A stretch of DNA of 28,077 nucleotides. Origin: a virus. The stretch covers positions 1-28,077 of the IMG/VR virus record IMGVR_UViG_3300037067_017524; one strand, 5' to 3'. Both the position numbers and the translations under genes were made by a program. The first letter of the stretch is position 1, and every line of letters starts with the position of its first letter. The notes below the pieces were generated by a model. The model saw only the letters and a program-made list of their open reading frames with translations. It searched no databases and was not told where the DNA came from. Of this stretch, positions 18,662 through 19,952 are shown one piece after another.

Positions 18662-18943
18662 TTATTCTAGTCTCATTTTAGGATACTCAATTTTCTTTTT
18701 TCCATATTCAGTTTTCTTTTTACTGTAATCTGGCACCCAATATCCTGAACTAAATTCTTTATATCCATACTGATTTGCTAATTCTTCAAATTTATTAGGA
18801 GATAGTTTTTCCAAATCTTTACGAAATTCTTCTTCACCGTACATTTCAGCATTCATTTCAATGAGGATAAGATCCAATATTTCTTTCTTAGTATACATCA
18901 CACTTTCTGTTATCATCTCAGTAAAATTTTTTAAATATTTCAT
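18662..18943 (-). CDS. Hypothetical small acidic protein with an N-terminal capsid-targeting-like motif
   Basis: N-terminus MKYLKNFTEMITE-S. Last gene of the minus-strand operon 20350 to 18662. Confidence 0.5.
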   Translation of the reverse strand: MKYLKNFTEMITESVMYTKKEILDLILIEMNAEMYGEEEFRKDLEKLSPNKFEELANQYGYKEFSSGYWVPDYSKKKTEYGKKKIEYPKMRLE

Positions 18944-18953
18944 ATCCTATATA

Positions 18954-19952
18954 TTAATTTTCTATCCCAACAAAAGCCAGAATTTTAGTCAAGCCAGCTC
19001 TTTTTAGACCGTTTGCACGATGAATTCCATCAATGATACTATATTCACTATCAACTACAATCGGAGGGTATTCCTTTCCTTTTAGGTATTGTAAACGATA
19101 TTCATTAGCAATATCTCTATCAACTTCCCATTCAGTTAAATCTAAAGCATCTAATAGCAATTCTTTAAGGATATAATTTGAATATTCTTCTATTCTTTCT
19201 GCTAAATCACCATCTACAAAGGAATATTCGAATTTATCTGCTTGAATGGTTAGATATTCTATGTATTGATATATGTCTTCGTTACTCAACACATCACCTA
19301 CCTTAGCATTCATTACTACATCAAGATGTTTCTTGTATCTCTGTTCATCAATTGGTTTGTTGAAATTCCAAGTGATAGCTTCTTGTATCTTACTTTTCTC
19401 TTTCTTGACTTTAAACTCCGAAACATCAATTTGTGGAAAATGATGTTCCACAAAATATTTAAGTTCAATTGGAAATGGTTTACTCTTAATAAAAGATTGT
19501 AAATCTAATCCTTTCTTAACTAATAATCTACACATATCCACATGCATACAATCCCAAGCAGCATAGAATAATCTTCCGTTTTCAACATTAACATTAGCTC
19601 CTTTATCTATTAAATATTCAGCAATATCGGTTTTTCCGTTTATTACTGTATTTTTTAAAGGCAATTCGTCTAATATGTGAATGTCCACACCTTTTTCTTC
19701 TACTAAGTATTTCACAACATCCAATTGACCATAACGACAAGCATCAGATAAAAATGTCCAAGTATTATAATTAGCACCTTCTTCTATTGCTTCTTCTACT
19801 AACCACAGAATTCCTTGTTGACATGCGATGGTTAATTTCATATCTGGAGTGAAATCCTTGACATGATTTTGGATATATTCTCGGTCTATAGGTGTCATCT
19901 TATCTGTAATAGATTCATTGACAAAATCTTTATACGTTTTAAGTTTATTCAT
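18954..19952 (-). CDS. Ankyrin-repeat + ParB/Srx-like nuclease-domain fusion protein with an N-terminal capsid-targeting-like motif
   Basis: N-terminus MNKLKTYKDFVNE-S. Ankyrin repeats: ...NGKTDIAEYLIDKGANVNVENGRLFYAAWDCMHVDMCRLLVKKGLDLQ. C-terminus EYPPIVVDSEYSIIDGIHRANGLKRAGLTKILAFV aligns with the ParB N-domain box (LQPILVR...[25 protein letters not shown]). Confidence 0.75.
   Translation of the reverse strand: MNKLKTYKDFVNESITDKMTPIDREYIQNHVKDFTPDMKLTIACQQGILWLVEEAIEEGANYNTWTFLSDACRYGQLDVVKYLVEEKGVDIHILDELPLKNTVINGKTDIAEYLIDKGANVNVENGRLFYAAWDCMHVDMCRLLVKKGLDLQSFIKSKPFPIELKYFVEHHFPQIDVSEFKVKKEKSKIQEAITWNFNKPIDEQRYKKHLDVVMNAKVGDVLSNEDIYQYIEYLTIQADKFEYSFVDGDLAERIEEYSNYILKELLLDALDLTEWEVDRDIANEYRLQYLKGKEYPPIVVDSEYSIIDGIHRANGLKRAGLTKILAFVGIEN

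What the first reader, a model, noticed from the sequence alone, without database searches (positions are those of the whole stretch)
18662..19952. Shared N-terminal MxxLKtYkDFvNE motif resembling the T4 capsid-targeting sequence marks a set of putative injected head proteins
Three minus-strand ORFs begin with near-identical decapeptides: MNKLKTYKDFVNE|S (18954-19952), MDNVLKYNDFLNE|K (25310-25672) and MKYLKNFTEMITE|S (18662-18943). A weaker fourth is MITDYNNFQQLNE (13282-13638).

The T4 internal proteins IPI, IPII, IPIII and Alt carry the capsid-targeting sequence MKTYQEFIAE. It directs them into the prohead, where the gp21 protease cleaves after (L/I)-x-E.

Our motif, K-T-Y-(K/Q)-(D/E)-F-(V/I)-x-E, matches that sequence at 7 of 9 positions and ends in the same x-x-E cleavage context.

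The phage has a T4-type tail, so these proteins are plausibly packaged in the head and injected with the DNA, as anti-defence or host-takeover effectors.

One of them is an ankyrin-repeat + ParB-nuclease fusion, which would be an unusual injected effector.
Basis: partly seen in the sequence, partly recalled or inferred. Interest (0 to 1): 0.8.

Follow-up and report, generated by a model that had tools for sequence, protein, structure and literature searches.

The report
T4-like capsid-address tag in megaphage
Several unrelated proteins of this giant-phage fragment start with the same 11-13-residue tag, which closely resembles the signal phage T4 uses to load proteins into its head; related giant phages carry the tag on about 5% of their proteins and repeat it 10-16 times in their head-scaffold/protease protein.

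Summary
A fifth ORF (13282-13638, on the + strand, not the minus strand) is a loose variant.

- **Not chance.** 0.1 N-terminal hits were expected from the window's internal rate.
- **Conserved in homologs.** 43 of 45 homologs of the 120-aa protein keep it.
- **Detachable.** It sits on unrelated payloads and is predicted unstructured.

The window is a 28-kb fragment of a Mahaphage-clade megaphage. In the complete 735-kb relative LR756501:

- 52 of 1004 ORFs carry the tag, against about 3 expected.
- The genome has a T4-type head module: portal, then an S77 protease fused to a scaffold, then a gp23-like capsid protein.
- The protease-scaffold contains 14 tandem Y-x-E-Y-I-A-E heptads. This has the same form as the tag and as T4's CTS, Y-Q-E-F-I-A-E.

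About 60 head modules of the clade show the same repeats. The conserved positions are the four that T4 genetics found to matter. Tag genes share a promoter-like element with virion genes.

Best reading: a cleavable capsid-targeting propeptide. Packaging, cleavage and injection are untested. The tagged proteins are not basic like the T4 internal proteins, and some are ordinary-looking enzymes.

The parts
19914..19952 (-). Leader (residues 1-13, MNKLKTYKDFVNE) of the 332-aa protein. Predicted cleavage is after Glu13.
   Evidence: Translation. Residues 1-20 have pLDDT below 50 in the AF2 model. The leader is kept in homologs P0002-P0007, P0012 and P0013.
18954..19952 (-). Gene for the leader + ankyrin-repeat + ParB/Srx-fold protein (332 aa)
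   Evidence: Pfam Ank_2 1.9e-15. AF2 mean pLDDT 84.8. 39 homologs found.
19440..19883 (-). Ankyrin-repeat domain (residues 24-171)
   Evidence: Pfam Ank families. Helical repeats in the AF2 model. PDB profile hits to designed ankyrin proteins.
18957..19355 (-). C-terminal ParB/Srx-fold domain (residues 200-332), with invariant IIDGxHR
   Evidence: A profile of homologs hits SbnI (5ujd, 6nr6) at E about 1e-4. AF2 pLDDT 89.3. The top Foldseek hits are all ParB-N, Noc, sulfiredoxin or SbnI, with E down to 6e-4. There is no single-sequence Pfam hit.
18905..18943 (-). Leader (MKYLKNFTEMITE) of the 93-aa protein
   Evidence: Translation. Homologs P0086-P0089 keep MKY[LM]KNF.E[ML]I.E.
18662..18943 (-). 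Gene for the 93-aa leader-bearing protein, last gene of the minus-strand operon
   Evidence: ORF list. No Pfam or PHROG hit. 5 homologs found.
25634..25672 (-). Leader (MDNVLKYNDFLNE) of the 120-aa protein
   Evidence: Translation. 43 of 45 homologs match the motif. P7 is Y or F in 45/45, P4 is F in 43/45, P3 is L/I/V in 45/45, P1 is E in 45/45. The linker to the conserved domain varies from 4 to 8 residues.
25310..25672 (-). Gene for the 120-aa leader-bearing protein
   Evidence: ORF list. Weak hit to phrog_1945.
1138..1170 (+).
   Evidence: Translation. Orthologs keep the leader with sequence turnover: MKTYNQFINES, MITKFIKYINEG, MSRIKKYTGFINEN, MNKKIKKFLQFIKEN.
1138..1914 (+). Gene for the leader-bearing HD-domain phosphohydrolase-like protein (258 aa)
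   Evidence: Pfam HD 1.5e-5. phrog_6931 and phrog_2244.
13282..13638 (+). 118-aa protein with a loose leader variant (MITDYNNFQQLNE)
   Evidence: Translation. Close orthologs have MKNIKMFNDFNLFEN. The distant ortholog in L033 begins exactly after the leader.
19952..20350 (-). Response-regulator receiver-domain gene, first gene of the operon. Its stop codon overlaps the start of the 332-aa gene (TAATG).
   Evidence: Pfam Response_reg 3e-17. Sequence. The same gene pair occurs on a second contig.
20377..20385 (-). Promoter-like TTATATATA upstream of the operon 20350 to 18662
   Evidence: Pattern search: 22 copies in the window against 5.7 expected. The same element precedes the sheath, tube and hub-like genes.
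18948..18956 (-). Promoter-like TAATATATA directly upstream of the 93-aa gene
   Evidence: sequence.
1124..1132 (+). Promoter-like TAATATATA directly upstream of the HD leader gene
26063..26071 (-). Promoter-like TAATATATA upstream of the operon 25998 to 25310
18627..18659 (.). Bidirectional terminator-like hairpin between the convergent vault-protein-like gene and the leader operon
   Evidence: Terminator scan: 13-15 pairs followed by a T run, on both strands.

Best explanation
The shared N-terminus is a short, detachable address tag of the T4 capsid-targeting-sequence (CTS) type.

**Form.** It is 10-13 residues long: Met, 2-5 mostly basic or aliphatic residues, an aromatic residue (P7), two variable residues, Phe/Tyr/Met (P4), Ile/Leu/Val (P3), Asn/Lys/Thr (P2) and Glu (P1). 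A small or polar residue follows.

**Proposed mechanism**
1. During head assembly the tag docks onto the scaffolding core. In this megaphage clade the core is a roughly 800-aa fusion of an S77 (gp21-type) protease with a scaffold.
2. That scaffold displays 10-16 tandem copies of almost the same heptad (Y-S-E-Y-I-A-E). The tagged protein is thereby built into the prohead.
3. The protease then cuts after the Glu. The same step would dismantle the scaffold at its repeats and remove the capsid protein's N-terminal segment at ...M-N-E|N.
4. The tag leaves the head. The payload stays with the DNA and is presumably ejected into the host.

**Shown here**
- The tag exists. It is strongly enriched at N-termini, conserved at the protein level, modular, and lies outside the folded domains.
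- The clade has a T4-type portal, protease-scaffold and capsid module with the same motif repeated in the scaffold.
- Tag genes share a promoter-like element with virion genes.

**Inferred:** docking, cleavage, retention in the head and injection.

**Window payloads:** an ankyrin + ParB/Srx-fold protein, an HD-domain hydrolase, and two or three small proteins of unknown function.
For: 1. **N-terminal enrichment.**
   - Window: 4 strict hits in 32 ORFs.
   - Sheath-flank loci: 46 hits against 2.2 expected.
   - LR756501: 52 hits against about 3 expected, robust to three controls.
2. **Fixed geometry.** Met sits 9-10 residues before the Glu, as in the 10-residue T4 CTS. P1' is A, S, N, E or G.
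3. **Conservation in orthologs while neighbouring residues turn over.**
   - 120-aa family: 43 of 45, with a variable-length linker.
   - Also the Ank/ParB family, the HD family and the 93-aa family.
4. **Modularity.**
   - The tag sits on unrelated payloads.
   - One ortholog starts exactly after the tag.
   - Another family has the tag in LR756501 but not in the window.
5. **Protein-level selection.** Synonymous codon use at conserved positions equals genome-wide use.
6. **Unstructured.** AF2 gives residues 1-20 pLDDT below 50, next to confident domains.
7. **T4-type head module in the clade.**
   - Portal_T4 1e-69 and Gp23 2e-25.
   - Peptidase_S77 6.7e-5 for the ORF between them.
   - 26% identity to T4 gp21 over 149 aa, with the His, Ser and Asp motifs aligned.
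8. **Motif repeated in the scaffold.**
   - 14 copies in LR756501.
   - 10-16 copies in about 60 head modules.
   - 11 copies in LR756502.
   - About 0.14 would be expected per 800 aa.
9. **T4 positive control.** The same regex finds IPII, IPIII and gp61.1 at N-termini. Internally it finds FGSFLTE at gp23 residues 59-65, which from my own knowledge of T4 is the gp23 maturation cleavage site.
10. **T4 genetics.** Positions 4 and 7 govern targeting, and 8 and 10 govern processing (PMC9026906, section 2.6). These are the conserved positions here.
11. **Shared promoter-like element (TWATATATA).**
    - It precedes 22 of 51 tag genes against 175 of 951 others (odds ratio 3.4, P = 8e-5).
    - It also precedes the portal, protease-scaffold and one terminase-like gene.
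    - In the window it precedes the sheath, tube, hub-like and fibre-like genes as well as the tag genes.
12. **Same-genome link.** Contig IMGVR_UViG_3300035208_009193 (676 kb) holds a window-type tagged ankyrin protein (L003), a sheath gene (L024) and a capsid gene with a 14-repeat scaffold (L165).
13. **Payload context.** Homologs of the ParB/Srx domain are fused to ART-PolyVal (P0017, 2e-22). That domain family was described in proteins thought to be injected with phage DNA (PMC7824862, citing Iyer et al. 2017). T4 Alt, a packaged ADP-ribosyltransferase, is a precedent.
Against: - There is no experimental evidence of packaging, cleavage or injection. The clade has no cultured member.
- The window (the whole 28-kb contig) contains no head genes. 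The protease is inferred from relatives.
- The Peptidase_S77 score (22.9 bits) is below Pfam's gathering cut-off of 27.
- The tag marks at least 5% of all ORFs in LR756501. These include a radical-SAM enzyme, a DeoC-type aldolase, a methyltransferase and a nucleotidyltransferase. That is many more cargo types, and odder ones, than in T4, where 3 of 250 ORFs matched.
- Tagged proteins are not basic. Their median mature pI is 5.9, the same as other proteins. The T4 internal proteins are basic.
- P2 differs between tags (Asn/Lys) and scaffold repeats (Ala).
- The i, i+3, i+4 hydrophobic pattern is also what any amphipathic helix shows, so part of the similarity to the scaffold repeats may be generic.
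- Tag genes are not concentrated next to the head genes.
Confidence: 0.62

Rival explanations
1. The tag is a generic N-terminal amphipathic helix with a function unrelated to the capsid. Examples are targeting to another phage-built structure (the clade encodes a conserved vault-protein-like shell protein), membrane or partner docking, or control of stability. On this view its likeness to the scaffold repeats reflects only a shared helical hydrophobic pattern.
For: - Many tagged proteins look like ordinary cytoplasmic enzymes: HD hydrolase, radical SAM, aldolase, methyltransferase.
- Tagged proteins are not basic.
- About 5% of the proteome carries the tag.
- A vault-protein-like gene lies next to the tag operon in the window and is conserved in LR756501.
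- Tag genes are not clustered with head genes.
Against: - A generic helix does not explain the invariant Glu at a fixed distance from Met, nor the small P1' residue.
- It does not explain the match to all four functionally mapped T4 CTS positions (PMC9026906).
- The identical regex picks out the T4 CTS proteins and FGSFLTE at gp23 59-65, which I know as the T4 capsid cleavage site.
- Tag and scaffold repeats co-occur in this clade and are both absent from PTm1 and the Lak region sampled.
- Nothing links the tag to the vault-like protein.
Confidence: 0.2
2. The tag is only a protease recognition site. It would be a removable pro-sequence that keeps the proteins inactive until the head protease, or another Glu-specific protease, cleaves them. 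It would have no role in targeting, and the proteins would not be carried into the next host.
For: - P3 aliphatic and P1 Glu fit the gp21-type cleavage rule.
- The scaffold repeats and the predicted capsid cleavage site (M-N-E|N) share these positions.
- In T4, positions 8 and 10 of the CTS serve processing only (PMC9026906).
Against: - P7 and P4 aromatics are as conserved as P3 and P1. In T4 these are the targeting determinants and are not needed for cleavage.
- gp21-type proteases are, as far as known, active only inside the prohead. A substrate must therefore get there first.
- A 10-residue unstructured N-terminal peptide is unlikely to inhibit diverse folds.
Confidence: 0.12
3. The shared N-termini are a by-product. 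They would reflect AT-rich codon bias near start codons, selection on mRNA for translation initiation, or spread of a conserved 5' gene cassette by recombination.
For: - The genome is 28% G+C, and the tag is rich in Lys, Asn, Phe, Tyr, Ile and Glu, all encoded by AT-rich codons.
- A conserved promoter-like element lies just upstream of many tag genes.
Against: - Shuffles that keep N-terminal composition give 2.6-3.9 hits against 52 observed.
- Equally AT-rich distant relatives have none.
- Synonymous codon use at the conserved positions equals genome-wide use, and substitutions stay within a chemical class (Y/F, I/L/V).
- The DNA of different tags is not conserved.
- The promoter-like element is also upstream of 175 genes without the tag.
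Confidence: 0.03

Closest known systems
Capsid targeting sequence (CTS) of phage T4 internal proteins IPII and IPIII (MKTYQEFIAE), with IPI as a looser relative
   Same: - It lies at the extreme N-terminus and is 10-13 residues long.
- It has aromatic residues at P7 and P4, an aliphatic residue at P3, Glu at P1 and a small P1' residue.
- It is attached to unrelated, fast-evolving payloads.
- The phage has a gp20-like portal, a gp21-like S77 protease and a gp23-like capsid protein (PMC8442874, PMC9026906).
   Different: - P2 is Asn or Lys rather than Ala.
- One to three extra residues follow the Met.
- The tag is carried by about 5% of ORFs (52 of 1004), against 3 of 250 in T4.
- The payloads are not basic and are mostly 100-500 aa, some with enzyme domains.
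- The protease is fused to a scaffold that repeats the motif 10-16 times. T4 gp22 has no match to the motif.
- Function here is untested.
T4 Alt, a packaged ADP-ribosyltransferase with a short N-terminal propeptide cleaved by gp21
   Same: It is an enzyme-type cargo carried in the head behind a short N-terminal propeptide ending in Glu. Relatives of the window's ParB/Srx protein carry an ART domain (P0017, P0011).
   Different: - The Alt propeptide is MELITELFDE, not the IPIII-type CTS.
- Alt is also processed at its C-terminus (PMC9026906).
- The window protein has ankyrin repeats instead of an ART domain.
Long N-terminal propeptides of head and ejection proteins in phiKZ, 201phi2-1 and SPN3US giant phages
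   Same: Many head-internal proteins are processed after Glu by a diverged gp21-like protease. The propeptides are thought to target proteins into the prohead (PMC5694885, PMC9026906).
   Different: - Those propeptides are mostly longer than 100 residues, are not a shared short tag, and often hold several cleavage sites (PMC5694885).
- From my own knowledge, their cleavage motif has a small residue (S/A/G) at P3.
- Here the tag is short, uniform, and aliphatic at P3.
Polyvalent proteins of phages and conjugative elements (Iyer et al. 2017, as cited in PMC7824862)
   Same: Effector-type domains are thought to be delivered with the DNA. ART-PolyVal occurs in homologs of the window protein.
   Different: Polyvalent proteins are very large multidomain chains. 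The proteins here are small one- or two-domain proteins, each with its own tag. That paper's domain list was not consulted, so whether the ParB/Srx domain belongs to that repertoire was not checked.
Prohead protease-scaffold fusion of Tenacibaculum phage PTm1 (closest cultured relative; capsid protein 28% identical)
   Same: The gene order is the same (portal, protease-scaffold fusion, capsid protein) and the authors annotated it as such.
   Different: The PTm1 scaffold has different repeats. No [YF]xxY[ILV]AE heptad and no tagged N-termini were found in the 25 kb examined.

Membership tests
T4-type capsid targeting sequence (CTS) | A short (10-20 residue) peptide at the extreme N-terminus of the precursor | tested here: met
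   The Glu lies at residue 11-13 in the window proteins. In LR756501 the Met is 9-10 residues before the Glu in 35 of 52 tagged proteins.
T4-type capsid targeting sequence (CTS) | Targeting determinants: aromatic residues equivalent to Tyr4 and Phe7 of MKTYQEFIAE | tested here: met
   In homologs of the 120-aa protein, P7 is Y or F in 45/45 and P4 is F in 43/45. In LR756501, P7 is Y/F and P4 is F/Y in 52/52, partly by construction of the regex. The T4 data come from PMC9026906.
T4-type capsid targeting sequence (CTS) | Processing determinants: an aliphatic residue equivalent to Ile8 and a Glu equivalent to Glu10 | tested here: met
   P3 is L/I/V in 45/45 and P1 is E in 45/45.
T4-type capsid targeting sequence (CTS) | The phage encodes a gp21-type (S77) prohead protease and a scaffolding core | tested here: inconclusive
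   Met in relatives:
- LR756501 has a Peptidase_S77 match at 6.7e-5, below Pfam's cut-off, lying between Portal_T4 and Gp23.
- It is 26% identical to T4 gp21 with the catalytic motifs aligned.
- About 60 head modules of the clade have the same protein.

The window itself is a 28-kb fragment without head genes.
T4-type capsid targeting sequence (CTS) | The same tag on unrelated payloads (portable signal) | tested here: met
   The tag is found on Ank + ParB/Srx, HD, 93-aa and 120-aa proteins. The 51 LR756501 proteins show 7% mean column identity outside the tag. Tags are gained and lost among orthologs.
T4-type capsid targeting sequence (CTS) | The tag is sufficient to load a protein into the prohead | not testable with these tools
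   This needs reporter fusions and purified proheads or virions.
T4-type capsid targeting sequence (CTS) | The tag is removed by the prohead protease after the Glu | not testable with these tools
   This needs N-terminal mapping of virion proteins or an in vitro cleavage assay.
T4 internal proteins (IPI, IPII, IPIII) | Small, highly basic, DNA-associated proteins | tested here: not met
   The median mature pI of tagged proteins in LR756501 is 5.9, the same as other proteins (P = 0.72). The window payloads have pI 4.9, 5.6, 5.7, 8.0 and 8.7.
phiKZ/SPN3US-type head propeptides | Long propeptides (often more than 100 residues) | tested here: not met
   The tag is 10-13 residues. The comparison comes from PMC5694885.
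ParB/Srx superfamily (C-terminal domain of the 332-aa protein) | ParB N-domain / sulfiredoxin fold | tested here: met
   All top Foldseek hits are ParB-N, Noc, Srx or SbnI (E down to 6e-4, probability 1.00, about 80 aligned residues). The profile hits SbnI at 1e-4.
ParB/Srx superfamily (C-terminal domain of the 332-aa protein) | Match to Pfam ParBc (PF02195) above threshold | tested here: not met
   The C-terminal 141 residues give no Pfam hit at E up to 1. PF02195 is on record only for homolog P0012.
   The fold also includes CTPases, kinases and sulfiredoxin, as the structural matches show.
Ankyrin repeats | Pfam Ank models above the gathering score | tested here: met
   Ank_2 57.6 bits (cut-off 27.3) and Ank 46.2 bits (cut-off 21.1).

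The most novel reading that the evidence does not exclude
Mahaphage-clade megaphages, which have the largest known phage genomes, have scaled up the T4 capsid-targeting system into a general address label.
- 50-100 different proteins per genome (5-10% of the proteome) would be loaded into the head. They include enzymes such as HD hydrolases, methyltransferases and ParB/Srx or ART-type modules.
- Loading would work by docking onto a protease-scaffold polyprotein that displays 10-16 tandem copies of the same heptad. The proteins would then be delivered to the host with the DNA.
- If so, the 'injected proteome' of an uncultured phage could be read directly from its sequence.
Probability: 0.4. Interest if true: 0.8.

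Novelty: new variant of a known kind. Interest (0 to 1): 0.7.

Why it matters
**What it would mean**
- T4's capsid-targeting sequence has so far been discussed mainly for T4 and its close relatives.
- If the tag works the same way here, it identifies from sequence alone which proteins an uncultured megaphage packs in its head and probably injects. That would be dozens per genome, most of unknown function.
- This gives a ranked list of candidate anti-defence or host-takeover effectors.
- It suggests that very large capsids carry a large pre-made proteome.
- A scaffold made of tandem copies of the targeting heptad suggests a concrete, testable docking mechanism. That mechanism is still not resolved for T4.
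- The tag could also serve as a portable packaging signal for engineering.

**Literature.** In the papers returned by the search, none that mentions huge or jumbo phages also mentions a capsid targeting sequence. This covers only the held library.

Tried and rejected
- **Exact-DNA search for the source contig in IMG/VR:** no match. The window is the entire contig.
- **megablast of 16000-21000 against phages:** no match.
- **tblastn of a 29-aa leader consensus against phages:** only a chance hit; the query is too short.
- **HD protein against phages:** no informative relatives.
- **Extended motif 'EGVRDKMTPKSEEEI' as part of the tag:** rejected. It also recurs 2-3 times inside single proteins, so it marks the start of a repeated module.
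- **Enrichment of tag genes next to the head genes:** not seen. Head modules are interrupted by endonuclease-like ORFs.
- **PTm1 as a cultured proxy with proteomics:** it has neither tags nor the scaffold heptads in the 25 kb examined. Its paper was not among the search results.
- **Resemblance of payloads to the basic T4 internal proteins:** rejected.
- **Composition or chance:** rejected.
- **Nucleotide-level or mRNA-level selection:** rejected.
- **Linking the window to a head module through its sample:** only a 2.5-kb Logan contig was found.
- **Profile search of the 1.84-billion-protein library with the leader:** not run. An 11-residue profile cannot reach significance there.
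Full report
**What the window is**

The 28,077-bp window is an entire metagenomic contig with about 28% G+C. It encodes:
- a 1143-aa tail sheath, a tail tube and a baseplate-hub-like protein;
- a stand-alone response-regulator receiver domain and a major-vault-protein-like protein;
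- many ORFs of unknown function.

Its sheath is 50.6% identical to that of LR756501/LR756503, the 735-kb uncultured phage. That genome and the 634-642-kb genomes form the Mahaphage clade, predicted to infect Bacteroidetes (PMC7162821). The window is therefore a fragment of a megaphage genome. It has no head genes of its own.

**Checking the observation**

The three minus-strand N-termini are as reported. Three corrections apply:
- 13282-13638 is on the + strand and is out of register.
- In T4 only IPII and IPIII start MKTYQEFIAE. IPI starts MKTFKEFTSTTTPVSTITE|A and Alt starts MELITELFDE|D.

The pattern [YF]..[FYM][VLI].E occurs seven times in all six-frame ORFs of the window. Four of these are at residues 4-7 of real genes. 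I also used a pattern fixed in advance from the T4 mutational data. With it, 3 of 28 proteins match at the N-terminus, against 0.10 expected (P = 1.7e-4).

**The tag is a clade-wide feature**

| Data set | N-terminal matches | Expected or control |
|---|---|---|
| 84 loci around sheath homologs from IMG/VR (1.28 Mb) | 46 of 1064 unique ORFs | 2.2 |
| LR756501, whole genome (fetched) | 52 of 1004 crude ORFs | shuffle within N-termini 2.6; column permutation 3.9; after internal Met 0.4% vs 5.2% |
| PTm1, LR756500 and Lak-B5 regions (AT-rich, more distant) | 0 of 22, 0 of 38, 0 of 44 | – |

- The LR756501 consensus is M-[IV]-K-[KN]-[YF]-x-x-[FY]-[ILV]-[NK]-E-[ASGNE]. The Met lies 9-10 residues before the Glu.
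- Codon use at the conserved positions equals genome-wide synonymous use. Selection therefore acts on the peptide, not on the DNA or mRNA.

**Conservation and modularity**

- Homologs of the 332-aa protein keep the tag.
- 43 of 45 homologs of the 120-aa protein keep it. P7, P4, P3 and P1 are essentially invariant, while the linker to the folded domain varies from 4 to 8 residues.
- The 93-aa family and the HD family also keep it.
- A distant ortholog of the 118-aa protein begins exactly after the tag.
- The window's untagged 106-aa protein has a tagged ortholog in LR756501.
- The AF2 model of the 332-aa protein gives residues 1-20 pLDDT below 50, next to confident ankyrin and C-terminal domains.
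- The longer stretch '..EGVRDKMTPKSEEEI' that follows the tag in this family is not part of the tag. It recurs inside multi-module proteins.

**Link to head assembly**

LR756501 has a T4-type head module:
- a portal (Portal_T4, 1e-69);
- an 807-aa ORF;
- a gp23-like capsid protein (2e-25).

The first 170 residues or so of the 807-aa ORF match Peptidase_S77 at 6.7e-5. That score is below Pfam's cut-off. They align to T4 gp21 at 26% identity, with the His, Ser and Asp motifs in register.

The rest of that ORF holds a tandem array of 14-residue repeats, each containing Y-x-E-Y-I-A-E. There are 14 matches to the tag pattern.

Every complete protease-scaffold among the 68 head-module loci of the clade has 10-16 such heptads. 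YSEYIAE is the commonest. LR756502 has 11.

The capsid proteins share a conserved ...H-Q-M-N-E|N-V-G-Y... segment about 45 residues from the N-terminus, ending in the same [MLV]-N-E. I take it to correspond to the gp23 cleavage site. This rests on the shared G-Y-x-A-T just downstream. The automatic alignment did not place the two sites in register.

One 676-kb contig carries a window-type tagged ankyrin protein, the sheath gene, and the capsid gene with a 14-repeat scaffold.

The cultured but distant phage PTm1 has a protease-scaffold fusion without these heptads. No tags were found in the region examined.

**T4 as a control**

Applied to 161 kb of T4, the same regex finds only IPII, IPIII and gp61.1 at N-termini. 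Internally it finds FGSFLTE at gp23 residues 59-65. From my own knowledge of T4, that is the gp23 maturation cleavage site.

The literature states that CTS targeting depends mainly on residues 4 and 7, and processing on residues 8 and 10 (PMC9026906, citing Mullaney and Black 1996). These are the four conserved positions of the megaphage tag.

**Expression context**

- A promoter-like element, TWATATATA, occurs 289 times in LR756501, mostly 10-35 nt upstream of start codons.
- It precedes the portal gene, the protease-scaffold gene and one terminase-like gene.
- It precedes 22 of 51 tag genes against 175 of 951 others (odds ratio 3.4, P = 8e-5).
- In the window it occurs 22 times, against 5.7 expected. 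It sits upstream of the sheath, tube, hub-like and fibre-like genes, and also of the tag genes or their operons.
- That it marks late genes is an inference.

**The payloads**

- In the 332-aa protein, residues 24-171 form ankyrin repeats.
- Residues 200-332 form a ParB/Srx-fold domain. A profile of homologs hits SbnI at 1e-4. All top Foldseek matches are ParB-N, Noc, sulfiredoxin or SbnI. No Pfam ParBc hit appears for the single sequence. Nuclease activity is not established.
- Homologs of this C-terminal domain carry other N-terminal modules, including ART-PolyVal.
- Of the 51 tagged LR756501 proteins scanned, most have no Pfam match. Single cases are a methyltransferase, a DeoC aldolase, a radical-SAM enzyme, a nucleotidyltransferase and an Ig-like protein.
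- Tagged proteins are not basic.

**Conclusion**

The best-supported reading is a cleavable capsid-targeting propeptide of the T4 type, in a clade that shares T4's head-assembly genes.

Two features are new here:
- the tag is expanded to about 5% of the proteome;
- the protease-scaffold fusion is built from tandem copies of the same heptad.

Docking, cleavage, retention in the head and injection are all inferred. The number and nature of the cargoes are the main grounds for caution. The rival explanations are a generic amphipathic helix with another function, a cleavage-only pro-sequence, and a compositional or nucleotide-level artefact. The last is contradicted.

In the papers returned by the search, none that mentions huge or jumbo phages also mentions a capsid targeting sequence.

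Noticed in passing
window 16137-18620 (+): An 827-aa protein matches the major vault protein shoulder domain (9e-27), a vault repeat and the SPFH/Band 7 domain. It is conserved at 51% identity in Mahaphage LR756501 (17179-19608). A vault-protein-like gene as a core megaphage gene is unexplained.
   Followed up: partly
window, 22 sites (e.g. 7846-7854, 13752-13760, 20377-20385, 18948-18956, 1124-1132): The promoter-like element TWATATATA occurs 22 times against 5.7 expected, upstream of most operons. There are 289 copies in LR756501, peaking 10-35 nt before start codons. It is reminiscent of the T4 late promoter TATAAATA.
   Followed up: partly
window 19952-20350 (-): A stand-alone response-regulator receiver domain is translationally coupled (TAATG) to the tagged ankyrin-ParB/Srx gene. 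The same pair occurs on a second contig (L176).
   Followed up: no
L001 (558-aa ORF), L002/L014 (337 aa), L081 (306 aa), L006/L007 (256 aa): The motif NES[LIV]RDKM[TK]PKSxEE[IL] recurs 2-3 times inside single proteins, marking the start of a repeated module of about 100-150 aa. In the window's 332-aa protein it follows the tag (ESITDKMTPIDRE).
   Followed up: partly
LR756501 21458-26533 (L085): A 1691-aa protein has seven repeats about 60 residues apart, each containing AIGTFVKYIIEIQK. This matches the tag pattern and could be a series of protease sites.
   Followed up: no
LR756501, many loci (e.g. 5130-5426, 132880-133257, 338419-338715): A family of small tagged or near-tagged proteins has a second conserved motif, DPYGEExW, a few residues after the tag. 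They often lie in tandem with overlapping stop and start codons.
   Followed up: no
T4 AF158101 18966-19130 (gene 61.1): The 54-aa hypothetical protein gp61.1 starts MKTFKEFIKE, a CTS-like N-terminus in T4 itself. As far as I know it is not listed among the T4 internal proteins.
   Followed up: no
L101-L168 head modules; window 11427-13280 (+): Head modules are interrupted by 260-660-aa ORFs with a shared N-terminus (M-I-I-x-x-K-I-x-I-K...NxxYYKKLGY), which may be homing endonucleases. The 617-aa ORF between the window's sheath and tube genes has weak similarity to this family.
   Followed up: no
window 21958-23079 and 23086-24183 (+): Two tandem paralogous genes (373 and 365 aa) of unknown function lie downstream of the baseplate-hub-like gene.
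   Followed up: no
P0008, P0009, P0014-P0017, P0011, P0021, P0023 (homologs of window 18957-19355): The ParB/Srx C-terminal domain is combined with different N-terminal modules in relatives: ART-PolyVal, a GNAT-like region placed C-terminally, and a hydrophobic domain of unknown function. This indicates domain shuffling around a constant ParB/Srx module.
   Followed up: partly
window 5661-7151 (+): This 496-aa protein has three paralogs in LR756501. Its one internal match to the tag pattern (GLYYFFIGEE) is a conserved family motif, not a tag.
   Followed up: partly
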